NCBI GenBank assembly: GCA_963700375.1
Contig: CAVOXF010000001.1
Coordinates: 91,817-155,816 of the forward strand
Origin: an uncultured Actinomycetota bacterium
GTDB taxonomy: Bacteria > Actinomycetota > Acidimicrobiia > Spongiisociales > UBA5794
Reading direction: 5' to 3'
Length of the DNA: 64,000 nucleotides
The translations under genes and the position numbers were made by a program. Below the pieces are notes generated by a model. It saw nothing but the letters and a program-made list of their open reading frames with translations. It had not been told where the DNA came from and made no database searches. Shown piece after piece: positions 3,798-48,293 of this stretch (within the stretch, counting starts at the first letter, position 1; the number at the start of each line of letters is the position of its first letter).

Positions 3798-4262
3798 ATG
3801 CGACTCGAGACAGGACAACCGGCGCCGCCGTTCAGCGGGGTCGACCACGACGGCAGAGCGCTGACCAGCGACGACTTCGCGGGTCGGCGCCTGGTCGTGT
3901 ACTTCTATCCGAATGCGTTCACACCTGGATGCACGACCGAGTCGTGCGATTTTCGCGACCGCTACCAGACCTTTGCTGATGCCGGATATGAGATCGTCGG
4001 GGTGAGTCCGAACGAACCCGACGAGCTCGCTCGGTTCCGGGCGGAATATGATCTGCCGTTCCCCCTCATCTCGGATCCGGACCATGTGATCGCCGACGCA
4101 TACGGCGCCTGGGGCATCAAGAAGAACTATGGCCGCGAGTACGAGGGCCTCATTCGTTCCACGATCGTCGTCGACGAGCACGGAGCCGTCGAGCATGCGT
4201 GGTACAACATCAAGGCGACGGGTCACGCGCAGCGGGTGGTCGGATCGGTCGTGGGCGCATGA
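3798..4262 (+). CDS. bcp: thioredoxin-dependent thiol peroxidase (peroxiredoxin Bcp)
   Basis: Peroxiredoxin motif VVYFYPNAFTPGCTTE at 154 aa, which is typical Bcp length. Confidence 0.88.
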   Translation: MRLETGQPAPPFSGVDHDGRALTSDDFAGRRLVVYFYPNAFTPGCTTESCDFRDRYQTFADAGYEIVGVSPNEPDELARFRAEYDLPFPLISDPDHVIADAYGAWGIKKNYGREYEGLIRSTIVVDEHGAVEHAWYNIKATGHAQRVVGSVVGA

Positions 4263-5125
4263 GCGTTCGCACGGCCGTCTTCCCGGTCGCCGGACTCGGG
4301 ACGCGATTCCTCCCCGCCACCAAGGCGGTGCCGAAAGAGATGCTCCCGGTCGTCGACAAGCCACTGATTCAATACGCGGTCGAAGAAGCTCGCGATGCCG
4401 GCATCGAGAACTTCGTCTTCATCACGGCCCACGGAAAGGTCGCGATCGAGAACCACTTCGACCGCGACATGGATCTCGAGCACTACCTCGCCGCCCGCGG
4501 TCAAGACGATCTACTGGACCTCGTCCAGATCGACGGCACCGTTCCAGGTCGAATCTCCTACGTCCGGCAGGTCGAGGCACTCGGACTGGGGCACGCGGTC
4601 TGGTGCGCCAGGAACCTGATCGGGAACGAGCCCTTCGCCGTGCTGCTCGCGGACGAACTCCTTCGGGGCGATCGGCCGCCCCTCAAAGACCTCATCGACG
4701 TTCATGAGCGAACCGGCGGGAACGTGATCTCCGTCATGGAGGTCCCCGCCGACGAGACAGGGTCGTACGGCATTGTGGCTCCGGGAGTGATCGACGGAGG
4801 CGTGATCGAAGTCAAGGGCCTCGTCGAGAAGCCGGACCCGGCCGACGCCCCATCGCGATACGCAGCGATCGGCCGCTACATCCTCGAGCCCCGCGTGATG
4901 GACATCCTGTCGCTTGGCTACACGGGCGCGGGAGGAGAGATCCAACTCACCGATGCGTTGGCGCGACTGATCGGAGGGGCGCCGTTCCACGCGGTCGTCC
5001 ACGAAGGCGAGCGCTACGACTGCGGGAACAAGGTCGGCTTCCTCAGAGCGAACGTCGCGCTGGCACTCGAACGTGACGACCTCGGCGGCGACGTGGAAGC
5101 GACTATCCGCGAACTCCTCAGCTAG
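4259..5125 (+). CDS. galU: UTP--glucose-1-phosphate uridylyltransferase
   Basis: GalU N-terminus MSVRTAVFPVAGLGTRFLPATKAVPKEMLPVVDKP. The ATG at 4259 overlaps the bcp stop. Confidence 0.88.
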   Translation: MSVRTAVFPVAGLGTRFLPATKAVPKEMLPVVDKPLIQYAVEEARDAGIENFVFITAHGKVAIENHFDRDMDLEHYLAARGQDDLLDLVQIDGTVPGRISYVRQVEALGLGHAVWCARNLIGNEPFAVLLADELLRGDRPPLKDLIDVHERTGGNVISVMEVPADETGSYGIVAPGVIDGGVIEVKGLVEKPDPADAPSRYAAIGRYILEPRVMDILSLGYTGAGGEIQLTDALARLIGGAPFHAVVHEGERYDCGNKVGFLRANVALALERDDLGGDVEATIRELLS

Positions 5126-5255
5126 CGCTGCGAACCCAGGGTTCTCCGCATCGCATTTGGCGCCGACAGCCCGCGGAATGGCCGCCGACGATTCGCATCA
5201 CCATTCTGTGGGCCCACGGCGCCACATAGAAAGCCGAGAACCCTGGGTTCGCAGC
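5126..5255. mobile_element. MITE-like palindromic intergenic element, copy A: 20-bp perfect terminal inverted repeats GCTGCGAACCCAGGGTTCTC / GAGAACCCTGGGTTCGCAGC around a ~90-nt core
   Basis: Read from the sequence. The element starts at the first base after the galU TAG. Its inverted termini are identical to those of copy B at 29806..29925, and the internal cores are about 70% identical. Confidence 0.6.
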
Positions 5256-5289
5256 ATCGCATTTGGCGCCGACAGCCCGCGGAATGGCC
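5256..5289. repeat. 34-nt exact direct duplication of the copy-A core segment found at 5150..5183
   Basis: ATCGCATTTGGCGCCGACAGCCCGCGGAATGGCC occurs at 5150-5183, inside the element. It occurs again at 5256-5289, immediately after the right inverted repeat. Confidence 0.7.
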
Positions 5290-5354: not shown

Positions 5355-6431
5355 ATGTCGAAGCTGAAAGAACTCGGAGCAGCAGGTCAGAGCGTGTGGC
5401 TCGACTTCATTCGTCGTGACATGGTGTCGAACGGCGACCTCGCCGCCCTCATCGACGAGGGTGTGACCGGCGTCACGTCGAACCCGTCCATCTTCGAAGC
5501 GGCCATCGCCGGTTCCGACCTCTACGACGAGACGATCGCCGCCACCGACGGCGATCCCCAGGCCGTTTTCGAGTCGCTGGCCATCGCCGACGTGCAAGGA
5601 GCGGCCGACCTGCTGCGCGGCGTGTACGACGCGACGGACGGCCTCGACGGCTACGTCAGCCTCGAGGTGTCCCCCACCCTCGCCGACGACGCCGAGGGAA
5701 CCATCGCCGACGCCCGCCGCCTCTGGGATCGCGTGAACCGCCCCAACCTCATGATCAAGGTCCCGGCCACACCTGCCGGAATCATCGCCATCGAAGAGAT
5801 CATCGCGGCAGGTATCAACGTCAACGCCACACTGATGTTCAGCCTCGAGGACTACGAGAACGTCGCCATGGCATACGTGCGAGGCGCCGAACGCACCCAC
5901 GTCCCCGAGCGAATCGCTTCGGTCGCCTCATTCTTCGTGAGCCGCGTTGACAACACGATCGATGCCGCGCTCGACGGCATCGGATCCGACGAAGCCCTCG
6001 CCCTCCGAGGGATCGCCGCGGTGGCGAACGCCAAGCTCGCCTATCGCCGCTACGAGGAGATCTTTGAAGGTGAGCCGTTCGCCGTCGCACGCGCACGCGG
6101 CGCCCGCCCGCAGCGCGCACTGTGGGCCTCGACCTCGACCAAGAACCCCGCATACTCGGACGTCCTCTACGTCGATGAACTCATCGGCCCCAACACGGTG
6201 AACACCATCCCGCCCGCGACCATCGACGCATTCCGCGATCACGGAACAATCGACGCGACGGCGCTGACCACCGGCGTCGAAGAGGCCGGGGCACACTTCG
6301 AGCAGCTCGCCGCACTCGGCGTCGACGTCGACGGGATCACGGCACAGCTTCAGGTCGACGGTGTCGCTTCGTTCGCCAAGGCATTCGAGGGGCTTCTCGC
6401 AGCGATCGAAACGCAGCAAGGCCGGTCATGA
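5355..6431 (+). CDS. tal: transaldolase
   Basis: MSKLKELGAAGQSVWLDFIRRD...TGVTSNPSIFEAAIAG is a transaldolase signature. The SD GGAGGA sits upstream of the ATG at 5355. Confidence 0.9.
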   Translation: MSKLKELGAAGQSVWLDFIRRDMVSNGDLAALIDEGVTGVTSNPSIFEAAIAGSDLYDETIAATDGDPQAVFESLAIADVQGAADLLRGVYDATDGLDGYVSLEVSPTLADDAEGTIADARRLWDRVNRPNLMIKVPATPAGIIAIEEIIAAGINVNATLMFSLEDYENVAMAYVRGAERTHVPERIASVASFFVSRVDNTIDAALDGIGSDEALALRGIAAVANAKLAYRRYEEIFEGEPFAVARARGARPQRALWASTSTKNPAYSDVLYVDELIGPNTVNTIPPATIDAFRDHGTIDATALTTGVEEAGAHFEQLAALGVDVDGITAQLQVDGVASFAKAFEGLLAAIETQQGRS

Positions 6432-10372: not shown

Positions 10373-12032
10373 ACTCAGACGGCGGGTCACATTCGCTTTC
10401 GCCGGTTGAACTCTGGGCCGCCACTCCTTCGGCGAGAACCTTCTTGACCTTCGCGCGAATCCGGTCGAGATCGGGAATCGGGTGGTATCTGGCGTCTCGC
10501 TCGGGAGCGTAATAGGGCGGATTGAACCCGACCGTAGCAATCTGACCGAAGTCGAGTGTGGCTGCTGCCCGCACCAGATCGGGCAGGAATGCGACCGGTA
10601 CGTCGGTCACCACATACCGCTCGATGGCATCAGCAATCGCCGGGAAGGCACGCAAGAGCGTCCACGGGTCCGCCTCCGCCGCCACGGCCCGCAACAGGCA
10701 CCGCTGCCGCGCCATCCGGGCATAGTCCGACGATCCCTTGCGCGCCCGTGCGTAGGCCAGGGCTTCGGTGCCGGAGAGGTGATTCATGCCAACATCGACG
10801 TCGACCGTCGCCCACCGGCCACCCTCCTCAGGTGGCGACACCTCAGACTGCAGCGGTTCCTTGACGTAGACATCGACGCCCCCGACGGCCTCGACGAGTT
10901 CGACAAACGCCTTCATATCCACAAGCACGTAGTAGTCGATGGTGAGGCCGGTCATGTGCTCCACGACGTCGCGGAGCGCCGCCATCCCCGGGTCAACTTC
11001 ATTCGGATACGACTTCGTCCACTTTCGCGTATACGGATAGAGGGCGTTGATCTGCTCGGGGAAGCAGTGGCAGGTCGAGAATCCCGGCTGGTCGGCGACT
11101 CCATCCCCATCGACGTCCGTCCAGGTCGAGGGGTCGTTCGACGGAGAGATGCGACGTTCGAAGTCGACGAAGGCGTTGCGGAATTGCTTCGGCATCGGTA
11201 TCTGGCCCATGTTGCGCGGAATGCCGAAGAGGGCGGCCTCGCCCGTCTGCAGGTCCATCGTCGCGACCATGATCGTGTCGGTTCGCAGCCCTCCGCGCCC
11301 GGGGCCCGAGTCGCCTCCCGCGAGAAGGAACGTCAGCCGGTCGGTGTCCACCCGCTCTTCGAACGGAAGGAACGGGGCCGCAGACACGCCCGAGTTGATG
11401 TTCGGCCGGGCGGCGATGGCCTCCGGATCGCCGATGCCGGGCCGGAAGATCAAGTTCCGGTTTGGGGATGCTTCAGTCGTCGTAGTGGACGGTGGGACGG
11501 ACGTCGTGGTGGTCGTCGTTTCGACGGTGAGCGGGTCCGGGACGGCGTCGGATTCGGCCGATGGCGGTGCCAGGGTCACCGACGTCGGGTTCTCCGCATT
11601 GGCGGACACGAAGACCCGGTCGATCAACCGCACACTCTGGAACCCGTACATCCCGAACAGGACGTGTGGGAGCGCCACGAGCGCGATGAGCGCGCCGAGG
11701 ACACCGAGGGACAAACGACCCGCCCCGTCCGACGCCAGCCGGTATGCATCGCCGATCGCGAACACACGCCACGCGAGGACGACGACGTTGACGACGAGCA
11801 GCGTCCACAGGACGGCAGGCCGAACGACGGCCCCGAGTACGCCAACCACGCCGCTCCATGCGCCGAACAGTACCGCCGCAAGAAGCAGCAGCAGGGGGGA
11901 CGCCACGATGAGGCCGCGCACCATTCGTCCCGCGTACCACTGCCCCGATCCCGGAATCAGGGCCGAGAGGGCGGCCGCGAGCCCGGGCTTCTTGCGCCCC
12001 GTGTCGCGGTCGGCGGCGTGTTCTGCGTCCAT
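10371..12032 (-). CDS. LytR-CpsA-Psr (LCP) family cell-envelope glycopolymer transferase, paralog 1
   Basis: LCP core (LLAGGDSGPGRGGLRTDTIMVA...LSGTEALAYARARKGSSDY...RQRCLLRAV) with N-terminal TM segments. The ATG at 12032 is confirmed. Confidence 0.8.
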   Translation of the reverse strand: MDAEHAADRDTGRKKPGLAAALSALIPGSGQWYAGRMVRGLIVASPLLLLLAAVLFGAWSGVVGVLGAVVRPAVLWTLLVVNVVVLAWRVFAIGDAYRLASDGAGRLSLGVLGALIALVALPHVLFGMYGFQSVRLIDRVFVSANAENPTSVTLAPPSAESDAVPDPLTVETTTTTTSVPPSTTTTEASPNRNLIFRPGIGDPEAIAARPNINSGVSAAPFLPFEERVDTDRLTFLLAGGDSGPGRGGLRTDTIMVATMDLQTGEAALFGIPRNMGQIPMPKQFRNAFVDFERRISPSNDPSTWTDVDGDGVADQPGFSTCHCFPEQINALYPYTRKWTKSYPNEVDPGMAALRDVVEHMTGLTIDYYVLVDMKAFVELVEAVGGVDVYVKEPLQSEVSPPEEGGRWATVDVDVGMNHLSGTEALAYARARKGSSDYARMARQRCLLRAVAAEADPWTLLRAFPAIADAIERYVVTDVPVAFLPDLVRAAATLDFGQIATVGFNPPYYAPERDARYHPIPDLDRIRAKVKKVLAEGVAAQSSTGESECDPPSE

Positions 12033-12200
12033 CGGGCACAACCTATCCCAGAACACGGAGAAGGGCCATCCGGAGGGGGTCGCCGGTCGCGAGTCGCGAG
12101 TCGCCAGAAGGAGAAACGAGGGACTGCGAGCTGCGAAGTGTCCACCAAACCGGGTCAACTACAACGCAAGCGGAGGAGTGGGTCCGGCGACTTGAGGCTC

Positions 12201-13841
12201 CTAGATCCGGCACTCGGTCTCTTTGCCGGTCTCGGGTTGCGTGGTCGGGTCGGCGGTCAGGATCTCTTGCACTTTTGCCCGGATCGCATCGAGGTCGGGG
12301 ATCGGCTGGTTGCGGTGGTTTGTGGTCGGGGCATAGTCGGGCGGTGTGAACCCGACCGTGACGATGTCGTCGAAGTCGAGGGCGGCGGCCTGAGCAACGA
12401 GCGTCGGAACGTAGTCCAGGGGAATGTCCGTCCTGACCGAGGACTTCACCGCGTTCGACAGCGATGTGAAACGGCGCACGATCGTGACCGGGTCTGCACT
12501 GGCCGCGACGGCCTTGAGCATGCAGCGCTGTCGCTTCATGCGCACGTAGTCGCTGCTGGCCTTGCGTTCCCTGACATAGGCCAGTGCCTGATGGCCGTTC
12601 AGTCGGCGCCACCCGGGACGGATGTCGATCTCAATCCAATCCTCGCCCTCGCGCGCCGGCGAGACTTCTGCCTCAACCGAACTTGTCACGTAGGTACGCA
12701 CACCGCCAAGGGCATCCACCACACGGACGAACCCCGACATGTTGACCAAGGCGTAGAAGTCGATGTTGATGCCGAGGAGCATCTCGACGCTGTCACGCAA
12801 GGCGGCCATCCCCGGATCCACCTCGTTCGGATAGGTATCCGTCCACGTGCGTGTGAAGGGGTAGATCGCGTTGATCTGGTCCGGGAAGCAGTTGCACGGG
12901 ACGAACTGATCGGGCACGTTGTCTCCGTTGTCGTCGGTCCAGGCTCTGCGCTCTTCCCACGGGGTGAGTCGTTGCTCCAGGTCGATGAACGCCAGGCTGT
13001 ACTCGGGGTTCAGCGGAACCCGGATCATGTTGCGCGGGATGCTCATGAGCGCCGCCCTACCCGTCAGTGTGTCGAGCGTCGCGACCATGATGGAATCGGT
13101 GCGCAGTCCGCCTCTGCCGGGCCCGGCGTCGCCACCGGCGAGGAGGATCGTGATCCGGTCGATCCCCTCGGTGTCGGCGGGCGGCATCAAGTCCATCGCC
13201 TCAACCGGAGCGGCGATGATCTCGGGCCAGGAGGCGATCGCCTCGGGATCCCCGAGATCCCGGCGGAAGATCAGGTTCCTGGTCGAACGCGGTGCCACGA
13301 TGACGGGGGGTGCCACGAGCGCCGGGTCCGGGACGGAGACGATCGGGGAGTCACCTGGGGCGAAGGGTGCAGGAAGCGGTGGCACCTCCTCAGCGAAGAT
13401 CGGCGCCGCCACATCCCCGGCGACGAAGACCGACTCCAGGAGGTCGATCGCTTCGAGATCGTATGCGACAAACACCGTGTGCGGTGCGGCAACGGCCACG
13501 ATCGTCAGCGACAGAATCGCCGCGGAACCCCAACCCGGCTTCCGTGCGCCGCGCGAGACTCGGAAGGCGTCGACGACCGCCACCTCTCGCCAGGCCAGCA
13601 CCACGAGGTTCGCCGCGAGCAGCGCCCACAGCACCGCCGGCTGAACGGCGAGTTCGAGGATCCGGACGGCTCCGCGCGACCAGAAGGCAACGGCGACCGC
13701 AACCAGAACGACCGACGGCAGGAACATCAAGATCGCACGCCTGACCCGGCCGCCGTACCACTGCCCTGCGCCTGGAATCAAGCCGGAGAGCACCGCGGCA
13801 AGACCCGGACGTTTCCATCTCTGGGCGCTCGTGTCGGTCAT
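12201..13841 (-). CDS. LCP family glycopolymer transferase, paralog 2 (tandem duplicate)
   Basis: Collinear homology with paralog 1 throughout (ILLAGGDAGPGRGGLRTDSIMVA...RQRCMLKAV). It shares the N-terminal motif PGLAAxLSxLIPGxGQWYxGR. Confidence 0.8.
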   Translation of the reverse strand: MTDTSAQRWKRPGLAAVLSGLIPGAGQWYGGRVRRAILMFLPSVVLVAVAVAFWSRGAVRILELAVQPAVLWALLAANLVVLAWREVAVVDAFRVSRGARKPGWGSAAILSLTIVAVAAPHTVFVAYDLEAIDLLESVFVAGDVAAPIFAEEVPPLPAPFAPGDSPIVSVPDPALVAPPVIVAPRSTRNLIFRRDLGDPEAIASWPEIIAAPVEAMDLMPPADTEGIDRITILLAGGDAGPGRGGLRTDSIMVATLDTLTGRAALMSIPRNMIRVPLNPEYSLAFIDLEQRLTPWEERRAWTDDNGDNVPDQFVPCNCFPDQINAIYPFTRTWTDTYPNEVDPGMAALRDSVEMLLGINIDFYALVNMSGFVRVVDALGGVRTYVTSSVEAEVSPAREGEDWIEIDIRPGWRRLNGHQALAYVRERKASSDYVRMKRQRCMLKAVAASADPVTIVRRFTSLSNAVKSSVRTDIPLDYVPTLVAQAAALDFDDIVTVGFTPPDYAPTTNHRNQPIPDLDAIRAKVQEILTADPTTQPETGKETECRI

Positions 13842-14162
13842 GACTGTTCGTCCCGTCTCCCATCGGCGGTACGCGGCGTAGAACCGCCCCCGCCTTCCCC
13901 ACGCGGCGTCAACGTTCCGCGACCCACTTCGGGTTCCCGATCAAACGGATTGCCGCCCGTTCGTGGCGGTCCTGATCCCGGGTACCTCCATGTTGTCACC
14001 GGCCGGCATCCACGATTTCAACACCCAGGTCAGCGGGCCACGATCATCGCGTGGTGAGCGTAGCGAACCACTCCGAAGGTTGATTCGTTCGATGCTGACG
14101 GTGTCGGCATCCACGCGTCGATTCTGGGCAGTAGCCTCGTTTCCACAACCCAGGGAGGCCTT

Positions 14163-28005: not shown

Positions 28006-28281
28006 GGAGGCGCAGAGGAACCCGCCGACTTCCCGACGAGCCCCGATGGCGGAGCCTCCAGCGAGCGAATCCGCCGGTACCAGTCAGGTTCGGCTATGGT
28101 TCGTGGGCCGCACCGGGTGGAGGTCAGCGCTTCGTCGCTTCCCCGGTGGTCTACGGCAGAGTTTCTCACCCGGTTGGACCGCCTCTTCGGCCGACGCTCG
28201 ATCACACAGGCATTGGTGCCCGTCGTTCGAGTCGGAGATCGGCCAATACATCAACGTTCCCAACCGGGATCAGGAGTCATC

Positions 28282-29805
28282 ATGACCACTACCTTTGCTC
28301 AACTCGGGCTGCCCAAGTCACTCGTCGGCGCCCTCGAGCAGCGCGGCATCCTCGAACCGTTCCCCGTGCAGGAGGCAACCATTCCGGATGCCCTCTCCGG
28401 CAAGGATGTGTCGGGCAAGGCCCCAACCGGATCTGGCAAGACCATCGCGTTCGGCCTTCCGCTTCTCGCCCGCGTCGATCGCGCCAAGCCGAATCGCCCC
28501 CGGGCCCTCATCCTGGCTCCCACGCGCGAGCTCGCGGATCAGATCAAGGACGAGCTGGCACCCCTCGCTCAGGCAGTCGGTCGCAACGTGTTCGCCATCT
28601 ACGGTGGCGTCGGATACGGACCGCAGCGCAACGCCATGCGCCGGGGTGTCGACGTTCTCGTCGCAACCCCGGGTCGACTCGAGGACCTGATGGAGCAGCG
28701 GACCGTTGACCTGAGCCAGGCCGATATCGTCGTCGTCGACGAAGCCGATCGGATGGCCGACATGGGGTTCCTTCCCGCCGTCAAGCGCATTCTCGACCAC
28801 ACCGCGAAGAAGCGTCAGACACTGTTGTTCTCGGCAACGCTCGACGGTGATATCGCCGTCCTGAGCCGCTCCTACCAGCACGACCCTGTTCGCCACGACG
28901 CCGGCACGGTGGATGCTGAGGCCATCGACGCCAAGCACCACTTCTGGCTGGTCGAGCATCACGACCGGGTCGACCACACCGCCGACCTGATCAAGGCTGC
29001 CGACCGCTCGATCGTCTTCACGAGAACCCGCCACGGGGCGGACCGCCTCGCCAAACAGCTGACGAAACTCGGCGTGACCGCCGTCGCCATGCACGGAGGT
29101 CGCTCACAGAATCAGCGCAACCGTGCGCTCAAGGCGTTCTCCTCATACCGGGCTCAAGCGCTGATCGCCACGGACGTCGCCGCCCGTGGGATCCACATCG
29201 ATGCCGTTGCGTCGGTCATCCACTTCGACCCACCGGCGGATCACAAGGACTACCTCCACCGTTCCGGTCGCACGGCTCGCGCTGGAGCGACTGGGACCGT
29301 GGTGAGCCTTGTCACCGGCGAGCAGAAGCGAGCCGTTCGTAGGATGCAAATGGATCTCGATCTCGACGCTCCGATTGAAGCCCCGGCCCTCGATGCTCTC
29401 GACTTCGGGGGCTACCGGATCGGTACGCCGTCGACGAATGGGTCGAGGCCGTCGTCGAAGAACACCCGGAGCGAAAGGCAACAGAGCCGGCCGGCGAAGC
29501 CGTCCAAGCCGGAGCGCACGCCGTCGAACGGCGGAGGTCCCACGAAGGGCGGCGAGAGCGTATACGTCGCGAACCTGCCCTGGGGCACCACCGAGTCCGA
29601 CGTGGTCCGGATGTTCTCCCCATACGGCGACGTCCACCAGGCCACACTGATCACCGATCGACGAACGGGACGGTCGAAGGGATTCGGCTTCGTCGACATG
29701 CCTCGTCCGGCCGCACGCAGCGCCGTCGACGGGCTGCACGGGACGAAGATGGGCGGTCGCGACCTGACGGTTCGTCTGGCCAAGCCCAGAGCCCACGCCC
29801 GCTGA
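28282..29805 (+). CDS. DEAD-box ATP-dependent RNA helicase with C-terminal RRM (RNP-1/RNP-2) domain
   Basis: Q-motif FPVQEA, Walla A APTGSGKT, DEAD, SAT and HGG motifs. A basic S/R/K linker is followed by VYVANL (RNP2) and KGFGFVDM (RNP1). Confidence 0.9.
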   Translation: MTTTFAQLGLPKSLVGALEQRGILEPFPVQEATIPDALSGKDVSGKAPTGSGKTIAFGLPLLARVDRAKPNRPRALILAPTRELADQIKDELAPLAQAVGRNVFAIYGGVGYGPQRNAMRRGVDVLVATPGRLEDLMEQRTVDLSQADIVVVDEADRMADMGFLPAVKRILDHTAKKRQTLLFSATLDGDIAVLSRSYQHDPVRHDAGTVDAEAIDAKHHFWLVEHHDRVDHTADLIKAADRSIVFTRTRHGADRLAKQLTKLGVTAVAMHGGRSQNQRNRALKAFSSYRAQALIATDVAARGIHIDAVASVIHFDPPADHKDYLHRSGRTARAGATGTVVSLVTGEQKRAVRRMQMDLDLDAPIEAPALDALDFGGYRIGTPSTNGSRPSSKNTRSERQQSRPAKPSKPERTPSNGGGPTKGGESVYVANLPWGTTESDVVRMFSPYGDVHQATLITDRRTGRSKGFGFVDMPRPAARSAVDGLHGTKMGGRDLTVRLAKPRAHAR

Positions 29806-29925
29806 CGCTGCGAACCCAGGGTTCTCCGCGTTCTATTTGGCGCCCCGGGCCCGCGGAACAGAACGCTCCACGAACCGTGGGCTGACGGCGTCATATACAA
29901 GGCTGAGAACCCTGGGTTCGCAGCG
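29806..29925. mobile_element. MITE-like palindromic intergenic element, copy B (same terminal inverted repeats as copy A)
   Basis: It starts at the first base after the helicase TGA. It has the 20-bp termini GCTGCGAACCCAGGGTTCTC / GAGAACCCTGGGTTCGCAGC (the right repeat matches for 21 nt), and the core is related to copy A. Confidence 0.6.
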
Positions 29926-29981: not shown

Positions 29982-30206
29982 ATGAAGAAGGCACAACACA
30001 ACTCGCGCAACTGCGCACCGATGACCATCAATCAGATGCGACGGGGCGGCACCTACCGCGCTACCACGCGCATCGGCAGCGCCGCCGGCCAGTTCCTCGG
30101 ACTCGAGACACCGCACGGCGATCGGTCGATCCTGCTTCGCGGCCGGACGGGGACCGCCTCGATCTCGCTCAGCGACATCACCTCGATCTGCCCAACGGCC
30201 GCCTGA
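29982..30206 (+). CDS. hypothetical small protein (74 aa)
   Basis: Strong SD GAAAGGAG sits 8 nt upstream of ATG 29982. No recognisable domain. Confidence 0.4.
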   Translation: MKKAQHNSRNCAPMTINQMRRGGTYRATTRIGSAAGQFLGLETPHGDRSILLRGRTGTASISLSDITSICPTAA

Positions 30207-30530
30207 CGGCGTCGACGGCGTCCTCAGCCACCCTGCACCCTCCGTGCAGACCTCCGTCTTCGACAATACGGCGATCACCCTCTCGGTCAGCTACTGGTAC
30301 CCATCGTCTGAATCATCCGGGGCATCCATGACGGATCGAGCGTTCCGAGCCGTCAAGAAGGCACGTGTTGATGCGAAGGTGGAACTCCCACATCCGACGC
30401 TCGATACAAACCAGGAGGCAGAACCGCCTGCGAGCCCCTCACCCGACGGATCAGCCAACCCACCGGTAGCAACCGCGAAGGACGCCGATACCACCTGAGA
30501 CGCTCGAGCGAAGCGGCCGACGATCCGGTC

Positions 30531-39219: not shown

Positions 39220-39464
39220 TGTTTAGTGCTAAATGACTTAGTTAGTAAATATACACACGAATTCGGATACCGCAAATGGTTTTCGGAGATTTCTTCGCGA
39301 GAGGCTGAAGAGCGAACGCGAAAGCCTTGTGGGGTAAGGGTCGCGAGGTAGGCTCATCCGTCCGACCATTGCCGCCAAGGACGGCGTTGGCGCCCCCCAC
39401 ACCGTTCTTGCGCAACTATGGGAAGCCCGCTTCCACTATCTACGCAAGAACGGTGGAGGGTGGC

Positions 39465-47730: not shown

Positions 47731-47840
47731 GGAGGCCCTCCTCGGATACGCGTCATGGTTGCGAAGATGCGCCCCAGTCAATGCGCCGACTCCGCGTGGC
47801 CGCACTGTATACGAGTCGAGGCCCGACGCAACCACAGCAC

Positions 47841-48293
47841 TCAGACCCGCGGCGCGTACCGGGCGTTCGCGAACGGCCAGATATCGCGGAGCCAGTCGGT
47901 GAGTGCCCGATGGACGACGGCGTCCATCTCGGATCGGCTCTCCCGAACCCAGGAGCTCACGTCGGCATCATGGCCCGGCGCCGCCGACGGGTAGATGTAG
48001 ACACAGCCGATGACCGCATCTCCGTCGAGGATCGAATACGTGAAACCCTCGCGGTTCTCGAAATCCTCGTAGTGGCCGGCGAGATCCGCACGATTCGCCT
48101 CCAGGCTCATCGGGGTCGGCCAACCCCGCTCCTCACCGAAGCCGGGAGTCGAGCGGATGTGCTCGATGCTCGACATCCAGGCGTCATAGTCGCGTTCGTT
48201 GTGCTGTTCCCCAAGCGGCTCCAGGCGGAAGCCGGGTCCGTCGAACGCAACCGGCACCTCGAACGAGGGCGGGACGAAGGAACCGTCCGTCAT
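47841..48293 (-). CDS. GNAT-like N-acetyltransferase family protein
   Basis: FRLEPL...YDAW...VIGCVYIYP pattern. Start assumed at MTDGSF. Confidence 0.5.
   Translation of the reverse strand: MTDGSFVPPSFEVPVAFDGPGFRLEPLGEQHNERDYDAWMSSIEHIRSTPGFGEERGWPTPMSLEANRADLAGHYEDFENREGFTYSILDGDAVIGCVYIYPSAAPGHDADVSSWVRESRSEMDAVVHRALTDWLRDIWPFANARYAPRV

What the first reader, a model, noticed from the sequence alone, without database searches (positions are those of the whole stretch)
29806..29925. Second copy of the palindromic TIR element, immediately after the DEAD-box helicase stop codon (copy B)
Copy B has the same 20-bp terminal inverted repeats as copy A at 5126, and its core is recognisably related (TTTGGCGCC...CCCGCGGAA...GTGGGC...GGCG...CATA.A.AAGGC.GAGAACCC). 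Both copies start at base +1 after a stop codon, with the shared junction CGC-stop-CGCTGCGAACCC. That suggests either a site preference or a function as a 3'-end structure.
Basis: seen in the sequence. Interest (0 to 1): 0.55.

Follow-up and report, generated by a model that had tools for sequence, protein, structure and literature searches.

The report
Stop-codon-hugging repeat doublet, REP-like
The 120-base palindrome after the helicase gene is a doublet of a ~55-base repeat that uncultured Acidimicrobiia place a few bases after stop codons, and the same repeats always bracket one nuclease gene, much as REP elements bracket their transposase.

Summary
Copy B (29806-29925) and copy A (5126-5255) share a 21-nt terminus, related arms, and a start directly after a stop codon.

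It is not a simple TIR-plus-core MITE. The building block is a ~55-nt unit:
- an almost invariant dyad-symmetric head, GCGAACCCAGGGTTCTC;
- a variable middle;
- a conserved tail, AGCCCGCGGAATG.

Units occur singly, in exact 60-nt tandem arrays, or as tail-to-tail doublets of fixed length. Copy B is a doublet. About 185 units were found in related Acidimicrobiia contigs; the window holds five.

Heads sit 4 nt after a gene's stop codon in about half of the cases where they face a gene's 3' end. The junction reads C|TA(A/G) far more often than at other genes. Positions are conserved between genomes, while the middle is homogenised within each genome.

The most interesting result concerns a single-copy gene encoding an AbiEi-like DNA-binding domain fused to a Vsr/I-Bth0305I-like nuclease. 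In four different genomic contexts it is bracketed by inverted units. This resembles REP/RAYT organisation but uses a different enzyme. That the nuclease acts on the units is inferred, not shown.

There was no hit in Rfam, plasmids, phages or the literature. Verdict: a new variant of a known kind.

The parts
28096..29805 (+). Upstream gene: DEAD-box RNA helicase with a C-terminal RRM domain. Its stop codon TGA is at 29803-29805.
   Evidence: Pfam DEAD 2.9e-47, Helicase_C 3.7e-26, RRM_1 2.1e-17. ORF listing.
29806..29862 (+). Left unit of copy B: linker CGCT 29806-29809, head GCGAACCCAGGGTTCTC 29810-29826, then middle and tail (…GCCCGCGGAAC).
   Evidence: nhmmer unit profile hit 29807-29862, E = 4.9e-13. 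Sequence.
29863..29870 (.). Short central spacer between the two tails. Copy B belongs to the shorter class, with 111 nt between outer head positions instead of 122.
29871..29925 (-). Right unit of copy B in inverted orientation. Its head is at 29905-29921, read on the minus strand.
   Evidence: nhmmer hit 29925-29871, E = 6.3e-16. Inverted repeat I2.
29982..30206 (+). Downstream neighbour: a conserved 74-aa ORF with a Shine-Dalgarno sequence, 56 nt after the element. Copy B therefore lies between two co-directional genes.
   Evidence: Same length in the orthologous locus L026. Differences by codon position are 10/12/34. Alignment.
5126..5182 (+). Copy A, unit 1. It starts directly after the TAG stop (5123-5125) of an NTP_transferase gene (4199-5125).
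   Evidence: nhmmer hit 5127-5182, E = 1.8e-17. Pfam.
5201..5255 (-). Copy A, unit 2 (inverted). Together with unit 1 it forms the palindrome.
   Evidence: nhmmer hit 5255-5201, E = 8.3e-15. Inverted repeat I3.
5238..5289 (+). Copy A, unit 3. It is a forward unit that shares the nearly palindromic head with unit 2, giving a '><>' architecture. The transaldolase gene starts at 5355.
   Evidence: nhmmer hit E = 2.5e-11. Direct repeat D3. The same '><>' is present in orthologue L051, and '>>' in L013.

Best explanation
Copy B is a doublet of two ~55-nt units joined tail to tail. It belongs to a REP/REPIN-like dispersed repeat family found in a clade of uncultured Acidimicrobiia.

Shown:
- Each unit has an almost invariant dyad-symmetric head (GCG-AACCC-A-GGGTT-CTC), a variable middle and a conserved tail.
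- Units occur singly, as 60-nt tandem arrays and as fixed-length doublets.
- Heads lie 4 nt (range 1-14) after stop codons, in a C|TA(A/G)/TGA context.
- Positions are kept between genomes, while the unit middle is homogenised within each genome.
- A single-copy gene for an AbiEi-like wHTH domain fused to a Vsr/I-Bth0305I-like PD-(D/E)XK nuclease is bracketed by inverted units in every genome context examined.

Inferred:
- This nuclease recognises the head palindrome through its AbiEi-like domain and nicks or cuts nearby.
- Repair by copying from other units (gene conversion, slippage) spreads, homogenises, and expands or contracts the units. This parallels how RAYT maintains REP/REPINs.
- A doublet is what remains if the gene is removed from the unit-gene-unit arrangement.
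- Units persist just after stop codons because the junction sequence C-TA-R is preferred by the mechanism, and because that position harms neither the gene nor the next promoter.
- In the helicase mRNA the doublet would form a ~55-bp imperfect hairpin without a U-tract. This would more probably protect the 3' end or impede read-through than act as a canonical terminator.
For: Family and anatomy:
- 52 genome loci carry the exact 18-mer, nearly all from Acidimicrobiia/Actinomycetota MAGs.
- A profile search finds 185 units in 0.56 Mb.
- The conservation profile shows the head at 1.3-2.0 bits, the tail at 1-1.9 bits, and the middle and centre low.
- Tandem spacing is exactly 60 nt in 23 of 27 adjacent same-strand pairs. 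The outer head-to-head distance of doublets is 122 nt in 19 of 24.

Stop-codon placement:
- In 31 outer heads the stop codon of an ORF of at least 80 codons starts 7 nt before the head, leaving a 4-nt linker, and 17 more have it starting 4-13 nt before.
- With GC3-based gene calls, 83 outward heads face a 3' end. Of these, 65 lie within 1-14 nt and 40 at exactly 4 nt. Tails show no such peak.

Junction bias:
- The base before the stop is C in 37/42 unit-adjacent genes, versus 115/281 others (p = 7e-9).
- The stop is TAA in 11/42, versus 11/281 (p = 1e-5).

The stop codon is native. Orthologues with and without units end at the same codon: window versus L033, and L005 versus L009.

Positional conservation with architectural turnover:
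- Copy A in the window and L051 is '><>', while L013 has '>>'.
- Copy B in the window and L026 is '><'.
- At the CBS/HerA locus all orthologues carry units, with genome-specific middles.

Nuclease association:
- In 13 representative loci the gene is bracketed by inverted arms of 45-123 nt (one alignment runs to 222 nt) at about 70-92% identity.
- Four different syntenies are involved: CBS|gene|HerA-like, the thioredoxin context of L049, sigma70|gene|OpuAC, and P5CR|gene|Macro.
- In loci chosen through the protein only, head cores are about 100 times denser within 200 nt of the gene than elsewhere: 12 in 3.1 kb versus 2 in 54.8 kb.

The protein:
- AbiEi models match at 1e-23 to 1e-27.
- Pfam gives MTES_1575, DUF559 and AbiEi_4, all below Pfam's own score cut-offs.
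- The AlphaFold model has pLDDT 90.7.
- Foldseek aligns the N-terminal part to AbiEi 6y8q, and the C-terminal part to I-Bth0305I 3r3p and NGO0050 3hrl, TM-score 0.8.
- The D/E-x-D/H motif residues are invariant in 29 homologues.
- The Vsr/DUF559 clade includes a homing endonuclease (PMC3424549).
- RAYT genes are likewise flanked by inverted REPs (PMC2817692).
Against: - No experiment or sequence footprint shows that the nuclease acts on units. The flanking units could simply be operators for autoregulation by the AbiEi-like domain.
- The gene is syntenic and single-copy, so it is not itself mobile.
- The 64-kb window does not contain the gene, so its presence in this genome is unknown.
- At the CBS/HerA locus both flanking units also abut the stop codons of convergent neighbours, so that locus alone could be coincidence.
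- No target-site duplication and no recent (>95% identical) filled/empty pair were found. The three empty sites are too diverged to read a footprint.
- Gene calls were a crude GC3 heuristic.
- Loci were selected for an exact head match, and several loci are orthologous. Counts are therefore not independent.
- Covariation in the long hairpin is almost nil (term -0.25, 3 of 29 pairs) and modest within units. An RNA-structure role is therefore unproven.
Confidence: 0.5

Rival explanations
1. A host-functional 3'-end element, with no mobility needed today. The unit is a sequence-specific signal in DNA or RNA, recognised by a host factor that acts at gene ends. Possible roles are factor-assisted termination, mRNA 3'-end protection, or modulation of translation termination by a hairpin at the ribosome's mRNA entrance. 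This would be like the conserved TRIT motif of mycobacteria.
For: - Head-specific spacing to the stop codon: mode 4 nt, with no such peak for tails.
- Units are retained at orthologous gene ends across 58-90% protein identity, while the stop codon and the linker drift.
- Doublets are very stable hairpins on both strands.
- Some covariation supports a short body hairpin. Pair 34/49 shows CG 30, UG 28, UA 20 and only 7 unpaired.
- TRIT precedent: 147 conserved palindromic copies narrowly positioned around stop codons (PMC3152330).
Against: - Single units are no more stable than shuffles (z = -0.5 and +0.8).
- There is no U-tract and no terminator-like site at either copy.
- The two arms of doublets are systematically non-complementary at several positions, and compensatory changes are rare.
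- Presence/absence and copy-number differences at orthologous sites show that the units are dispensable at any given gene.
- Some units do not follow a stop codon (L026 1140, L071 3904).
- This reading does not explain why units bracket the nuclease gene.
Confidence: 0.22
2. A classical MITE family. The doublets would be internal-deletion derivatives of an insertion sequence with a DDE or other known transposase that lies elsewhere in these genomes. Single units and arrays would be decay or slippage products.
For: - Fixed-length doublets with conserved termini and a partly conserved centre (AAGGGGG…CCCTCGT), which suggests they are copied as a whole.
- Presence/absence polymorphism.
- Restriction to one clade.
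Against: - No target-site duplication. The two outer flanks differ (C-TA-R on one side, usually ACA/CCA on the other).
- No transposase gene is flanked by units in 0.56 Mb of unit-containing loci, and no HUH/Y1 signature was found.
- No similarity in plasmid, phage or viral collections.
- Arrays with an exact 60-nt period and within-genome homogenisation at conserved positions are not typical of MITEs.
Confidence: 0.15
3. A regulon of operator sites. The head palindrome is only the binding site of the AbiEi-like protein, acting as a transcription factor or nucleoid-organising protein. The dispersed units would be a set of binding sites, not substrates of its nuclease domain.
For: - The N-terminal part of the protein matches AbiEi by sequence and by fold. 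From my own knowledge, not checked here, AbiEi antitoxins bind inverted repeats in their own promoter.
- The head is an invariant dyad-symmetric sequence.
- In L069 and L081 the units lie directly upstream of, and overlap, the gene's start codon.
Against: - Units sit at the 3' ends of genes rather than in promoters.
- About 40 nt beyond the head are also conserved and repeated.
- Tandem arrays and doublets are hard to explain as operators.
- The nuclease-motif residues are invariant, which argues for an active enzyme.
Confidence: 0.08

Closest known systems
REP/BIME elements and REPINs with their RAYT (REP-associated tyrosine transposase) genes, in Proteobacteria
   Same: - Short extragenic repeats in high copy.
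- They occur singly, in clusters, and as inverted doublets that form long hairpins.
- A single-copy, syntenic enzyme gene is always flanked by two repeats in inverted orientation (PMC2817692).
- My own recollection, not checked here: repeat sequence is genome-specific at partly conserved positions in enterobacteria, and many E. coli REPs lie within about 15 nt of a stop codon.
   Different: - The unit is ~55 nt, with only a 13-17-nt palindromic head, and has no GT(A/G)G head.
- The flanked gene encodes an AbiEi-like wHTH plus a Vsr/DUF559-type PD-(D/E)XK nuclease, not an HUH Y1 transposase. No HUH signature was found in the loci.
- The phylum is Actinomycetota.
- There are head-to-tail arrays with an exact 60-nt period.
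- The distance to the stop codon is much tighter.
TRIT (Tuberculosis Rho-independent terminator) motif of Mycobacterium (RNIE paper, PMC3152330)
   Same: An actinobacterial, sequence-conserved, palindromic and bidirectional motif in about 150 copies. Its distribution relative to the nearest stop codon is very narrow. The authors suspected a dedicated factor.
   Different: - TRIT is reported only in Mycobacterium and starts within the coding sequence (about -8).
- The units described here also occur as non-palindromic singles and tandem arrays.
- No sequence comparison was possible, because no TRIT sequence was available. Rfam gave no hit.
MITEs such as ERIC/IRU and Correia elements
   Same: A 100-150-nt imperfect palindrome with conserved termini, intergenic, co-transcribed with neighbouring genes, and polymorphic in presence.
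   Different: - No TA or other target duplication.
- The element is built from a unit that is itself repeated head to tail.
- No parent IS is known.
MIRU (mycobacterial interspersed repetitive units)
   Same: Tandem direct repeats of 40-100 bp between genes of Actinobacteria, with copy number varying between strains. The 60-nt period found here is a multiple of three.
   Different: From my own knowledge, MIRUs carry small ORFs that overlap the stop and start codons of the flanking genes. Here the first unit begins after the stop, and no overlap with the next start is seen at either window locus. MIRUs are not reported as inverted doublets.
Homing endonuclease I-Bth0305I and Vsr/DUF559 nucleases
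   Same: The C-terminal domain of the unit-flanked protein superposes on 3r3p and 3hrl with TM-score 0.8. This clade includes a homing endonuclease that spreads its own locus by cleavage and repair (PMC3424549).
   Different: There is no intron or intein context. The gene is single-copy and syntenic, and what is dispersed is the flanking repeat, not the gene.

Membership tests
REP/REPIN-RAYT system | The repeat is a 20-40-nt imperfect palindrome with a conserved GT(A/G)G head. | tested here: not met
   The unit is ~55 nt, and only the 13-17-nt head is palindromic. The bases before the head are C-T-R-R plus CGCT, not GTAG.
REP/REPIN-RAYT system | Many extragenic copies, clustered, in direct and alternating orientation, with inverted doublets forming hairpins. 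| tested here: met
   185 units in the fetched loci. Architectures: 30 single, 28 tandem x2, 22 doublets, and mixed forms. Doublet hairpin z-scores are -9 to -11.
REP/REPIN-RAYT system | A single-copy IS200/IS605-like Y1 (HUH) transposase gene flanked by two inverted repeats. | tested here: not met
   A flanked single-copy gene exists, but it encodes an AbiEi-like plus Vsr/DUF559-like nuclease. A regex for HUH…Y..NP found nothing in 0.56 Mb. That search is crude and covers only the fetched loci.
MITE (non-autonomous derivative of an IS) | Terminal inverted repeats and a size below about 500 bp. | tested here: met
   21-nt identical termini, arms of 54-55 nt, and element length of 120-131 nt.
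MITE (non-autonomous derivative of an IS) | A target-site duplication flanking the element. | tested here: not met
   The outer flanks of doublets differ: a stop codon on one side and mostly ACA, CCA or CAA on the other. No direct repeat is present.
MITE (non-autonomous derivative of an IS) | A parent element with the same ends that encodes a transposase. | tested here: inconclusive
   A unit-gene-unit arrangement exists. However, the gene is syntenic and its product is not a known transposase. Whole genomes could not be scanned.
TRIT (Mycobacterium) | Match to the TRIT sequence/structure model. | not testable with these tools
   No TRIT model or sequence was available. Rfam cmscan gave no hit at gathering score, and only chance-level miRNA hits by E-value.
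TRIT (Mycobacterium) | A conserved palindromic motif narrowly positioned at stop codons. | tested here: met
   The stop-to-head distance has a mode of 4 nt, found in 40 of the 83 heads that face a 3' end. This is a resemblance in behaviour, not in sequence.
Canonical intrinsic (Rho-independent) terminator | A GC-rich hairpin followed immediately by a U-tract. | tested here: not met
   The hairpin is present, but no T-run follows. The terminator scan finds no site at either copy.
MIRU | Tandem repeats whose internal ORFs overlap the stop and start codons of the flanking genes. | tested here: not met
   Arrays start after the stop codon (L010, L046). At the two window loci the next start codon is 56-65 nt beyond the element.
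CRISPR array (considered because of the 60-nt period) | Identical repeats separated by unique spacers. | tested here: not met
   The whole 60-nt period is repeated, and the 'spacers' are identical or nearly so.
LexA (Cheo) box of Gram-positive bacteria | GAAC-N4-GTTC. | tested here: not met
   The head is GAAC-CCAGG-GTTC, a spacing of N5. The consensus is recalled from my own knowledge.

The most novel reading that the evidence does not exclude
The units and the unit-flanked gene form a second, independently evolved REPIN/RAYT-type partnership. In it, a domesticated AbiEi-wHTH plus Vsr-like PD-(D/E)XK nuclease, rather than an HUH transposase, recognises the AACCC-W-GGGTT head. By nick-induced copying it disperses and homogenises the repeats, with a preference for the C|TA-R junction. 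This would place the repeats exactly at stop codons throughout the genome.
Probability: 0.35. Interest if true: 0.8.

Novelty: new variant of a known kind. Interest (0 to 1): 0.6.

Why it matters
REP-type repeats and their domesticated transposases are known almost only from Proteobacteria, and how they spread is still debated. Three things would follow if this case holds.

- It offers a second case, in Actinomycetota, built on a different enzyme fold. That would show the repeat-plus-caretaker-gene arrangement is a recurrent evolutionary solution, and would give a new protein to test biochemically.
- The 4-nt spacing to stop codons and the C|TA(A/G) bias are unusually sharp. They make the question of how a DNA repeat finds gene ends directly testable.
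- For annotation, these units mark true gene ends in uncultured Acidimicrobiia. They also explain some C-terminal or N-terminal codons that are encoded by repeat sequence.

Tried and rejected
- Rfam at gathering and E-value thresholds gave nothing meaningful.
- The plasmid, phage and viral-contig collections gave no match.
- Literature searches for the motif, for Acidimicrobiia REPs, and for AbiEi/DUF559/MTES_1575 gave nothing.
- Exact-protein look-ups for two window proteins found nothing on record. The window's own genome could therefore not be extended.
- I first rejected the DUF559-like gene as a partner because 14 of 16 metagenome loci were the same syntenic locus. I reversed this after reading that RAYTs are also syntenic and repeat-flanked, and after finding three further contexts.
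- The idea that the element supplies the stop codon or the C-terminal codons was rejected. Orthologues with and without units end at the same codon, and the C-termini of unit-adjacent genes are unrelated.
- The idea that deletion bias alone explains the abutment was rejected, because only heads pile up at stop codons, not tails.
- CRISPR was rejected because the spacers are identical.
- attC was rejected because there is no GTTRRRY core and no cassette array.
- A LexA box was rejected because the spacing is N5, not N4.
- A canonical terminator was rejected because there is no U-tract.
- An HUH/Y1 motif regex found nothing.
- A profile search of PDB sequences found nothing. Only the fold search was informative.
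- A synteny comparison of the window with L007/L031 failed because of a synteny break.

Full report
**1. The observation**

The sequence at 29806-29925 reads CGCTGCGAACCCAGGGTTCTC … GAGAACCCTGGGTTCGCAGCG. It begins immediately after the TGA stop (29803-29805) of an ORF at 28096-29805. Pfam identifies that ORF as a DEAD-box helicase with a C-terminal RRM domain.

Copy A (5126-5255) has the same 21-nt terminus. It follows the TAG stop of an NTP_transferase gene and lies upstream of a transaldolase gene.

The 17-mer head, allowing up to 3 mismatches, occurs 10 times in the window, against 0.23 expected. The inverted repeat is not 20 bp. Its arms are 54-55 nt long and 80-85% complementary, both within and between copies.

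As RNA, copy B folds at -88 kcal/mol (z = -11). The opposite strand folds nearly as well.

- Only copy B has CGC before the stop.
- Copy A carries a third half-unit (5238-5289).

**2. What the element is made of**

A scan of one genome per species with the 18-mer TGCGAACCCAGGGTTCTC returned 52 loci. Almost all come from a handful of uncultured Acidimicrobiia/Actinomycetota MAGs. Reading them changed the picture.

The same head is followed by the same ~35 nt in three arrangements:
- as a single copy;
- as head-to-tail arrays with an exact 60-nt period (23 of 27 adjacent same-strand pairs);
- as tail-to-tail inverted pairs of nearly fixed length (outer head-to-head distance 122 nt in 19 of 24).

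The arrays are not CRISPR, because the whole period is repeated.

A profile built from the units finds 185 copies in the 0.56 Mb fetched. It finds exactly five in the window: three at locus A and two at locus B.

Per-position information shows the following:
- an almost invariant head (GCGAACCCAGGGTTCTC, 1.3-2.0 bits);
- a variable middle;
- a conserved tail (AGCCCGCGGAATG);
- no conservation beyond position +50.

The centre of doublets keeps its length (21 nt in the long class), but only its edges are conserved.

**3. Structure or sequence?**

Single units fold no better than shuffled sequence.

In 26 aligned doublets, RNAalifold finds a covariation term of only -0.25. Only 3 of 29 pairs show compensatory change, and the two arms differ systematically at several positions.

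Within units a short body hairpin gets modest support. For example, pair 34/49 shows CG 30, UG 28, UA 20 and 7 unpaired.

The pattern of invariant dyad-symmetric termini with little covariation points to sequence-specific recognition by a protein, not to a structured RNA. Neither copy is followed by a U-tract, and the terminator scan finds nothing there.

**4. Position relative to genes**

This is the sharpest property of the family.
- In 31 outer heads the stop codon of an ORF of at least 80 codons starts 7 nt before the head, leaving a 4-nt linker, and 17 more have it starting 4-13 nt before.
- Using GC3-based gene calls, 83 outward-facing heads face a gene's 3' end. Of these, 65 lie within 1-14 nt of the stop and 40 at exactly 4 nt.
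- Tails facing 3' ends are spread from -15 to about 100 nt, with no peak.

Because only heads pile up, plain deletion bias in compact genomes is not enough to explain the placement.

The stop codon is native. This was checked in two filled/empty comparisons, where the protein ends at the same codon in both members:
- window 47.8 kb versus L033;
- L005 versus L009.

The C-terminal residues of unit-adjacent genes are unrelated to each other.

The junction is nevertheless strongly biased:
- The base before the stop is C in 37/42 unit-adjacent genes, versus 115/281 other genes (p = 7e-9).
- TAA is used in 11/42, versus 11/281 (p = 1e-5).
- TA-type stops make up 31/42, versus 103/281.
- An A at position -5 is also found in most outer heads that do not follow a stop.

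There is thus a DNA-level preference for C|T-R-R(A) next to the head. In a 65% GC genome that sequence is met mostly at stop codons.

**5. Evolutionary behaviour**

Orthologous loci keep the position but not the architecture.
- Copy A is '><>' in the window and L051, but '>>' in L013.
- Copy B is '><' in the window and L026.
- Other orthologous pairs show '>>>' against '><', or one unit against four.

At one locus (a CBS-domain gene, a 309-aa gene and a HerA-like gene) all 16 orthologues from metagenomes carry units after both neighbouring stops, down to about 58% protein identity. The stop codon and the 3-4-nt linker drift. The middle of the unit is the same at both sites within a genome and differs between genomes.

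This is concerted evolution at conserved positions. Presence/absence differences also exist.

**6. The associated gene**

The 309-aa gene lying between inverted units in L047 and L048 was first set aside because it is syntenic. RAYT genes, however, are also always flanked by two inverted REPs and show no IS-like mobility (PMC2817692), so synteny is not an argument against a partner role.

I therefore fetched contexts of homologues at 49-58% identity. They lie in different neighbourhoods:
- sigma70 | gene | OpuAC;
- P5CR (divergent) | gene | Macro;
- a thioredoxin context for a pseudogene copy in L049.

In every case the gene is bracketed by inverted units of the local variant, with tails towards the gene:
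- Arms are 45-123 nt (one alignment runs to 222 nt) at about 70-92% identity in 13 representative loci.
- In L069 and L081 the gene's ATG is the ATG of the unit tail GGAATG.
- In several loci its last codons and stop lie in the other unit's tail.
- In loci chosen through the protein alone, head cores are about 100 times denser within 200 nt of the gene (12 in 3.1 kb) than elsewhere (2 in 54.8 kb).

The protein has two parts:
- An N-terminal AbiEi-like module. PADLOC AbiEi models match at 1e-23 to 1e-27, and Foldseek aligns it to 6y8q.
- A C-terminal Vsr/DUF559-type nuclease domain. Pfam gives MTES_1575 and DUF559, both below Pfam's own score cut-offs. It superposes at TM-score 0.8 on the homing endonuclease I-Bth0305I (3r3p) and on NGO0050 (3hrl).
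- Its motif residues are invariant in 29 homologues.

The Vsr/DUF559 clade is known to contain a homing endonuclease (PMC3424549).

**7. Interpretation**

Shown: the anatomy, the arrangements, the stop-codon placement and junction bias, the positional conservation with within-genome homogenisation, and the physical association with the nuclease gene.

Inferred: the nuclease binds the head and, by nicking followed by copy-repair, spreads and homogenises the units, in analogy with RAYT and REPINs. A doublet then has exactly the geometry of unit-gene-unit with the gene removed.

For the helicase transcript, the doublet would form a long imperfect hairpin between the helicase stop and a conserved 74-aa ORF 56 nt downstream. 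Protection of the 3' end, or partial insulation of the downstream ORF, is plausible but untested.

Rivals:
- a purely host-functional gene-end signal, like the mycobacterial TRIT, which is also conserved, palindromic and narrowly placed at stop codons (PMC3152330);
- a classical MITE with an undiscovered IS;
- a set of operator sites.

**8. Comparison and novelty**

The element behaves like REP/BIME/REPIN but fails two defining features: the GT(A/G)G-headed 20-40-nt palindrome, and the HUH transposase.

It behaves like TRIT in its placement but could not be compared by sequence.

It is not a canonical terminator, MIRU, CRISPR array, attC site or LexA box.

Nothing similar was found in Rfam, plasmids, phages, viral contigs or the searchable literature.

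I classify it as a new variant of a known kind. The repeat family itself is an ordinary type of object. The exact stop-codon abutment with a C|TA-R bias, and the PD-(D/E)XK partner gene, are the unusual parts.

**9. Caveats**

- Loci were selected by an exact head match.
- Several loci are orthologous, so counts are not independent.
- Gene calls are heuristic.
- The window's own genome could not be retrieved, so whether it carries the nuclease gene is unknown.
- No biochemical or transcript evidence exists.

Noticed in passing
window 29982-30206 (+): A 74-aa ORF with a Shine-Dalgarno sequence lies 56 nt after copy B. It has no Pfam hit. It has the same length in L026, and differences by codon position are 10/12/34, so it is a real conserved small gene of unknown function.
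   Followed up: partly
window 30209-30404, compared with L026 264-1256: The window matches only the 3' part of a membrane (MscS-like by eye) gene that is complete in L026. About 800 nt are missing from the window, including a 2-unit array. This looks like a deletion remnant.
   Followed up: partly
window 47794-47846, compared with L033 4410-4698: The window is an empty site where the related MAG has a 5-unit cluster ('><<<<'). The adjacent minus-strand gene ends at the same codon in both.
   Followed up: yes
window 39395-39460: A separate palindrome with 32-nt arms (78% complementary, 2-nt gap), unrelated to the unit family.
   Followed up: no
window about 10400-14100: Direct repeats spaced about 1820 nt apart (74% identical over 151 nt, and others) indicate two tandem paralogous genes.
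   Followed up: no
L071-L073 5025-5045: The last 7 codons of a Macro-domain gene are encoded by a unit head, and the stop lies just past the head. Units can therefore overlap coding ends, as reported for TRIT.
   Followed up: partly
L069 about 4001; L081 4001; L047 818-832; L048 3952-3966: The start codon of the nuclease gene coincides with the ATG of the unit tail GGAATG in some lineages. In others its last 4-5 codons (…HSAG*) and stop lie in the opposite unit's tail.
   Followed up: partly
L039 compared with L011: A contig binned as 'Gammaproteobacteria' (MFD03551.bin.2.57) carries the same array and flanks as an Actinomycetota bin. It is probably mis-binned.
   Followed up: no
L040 5623-5816: An array with a 59-nt period, made of a variant unit whose head is nearly symmetric (GAGAACCCAGGGTTCAC). 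The head motif matches on both strands at three of its four heads.
   Followed up: no
head motif, e.g. window 29812-29824: The head centre is CCWGG, the Dcm/Vsr-type site. The associated nuclease has a Vsr-like fold. The coincidence was noted but not tested.
   Followed up: no
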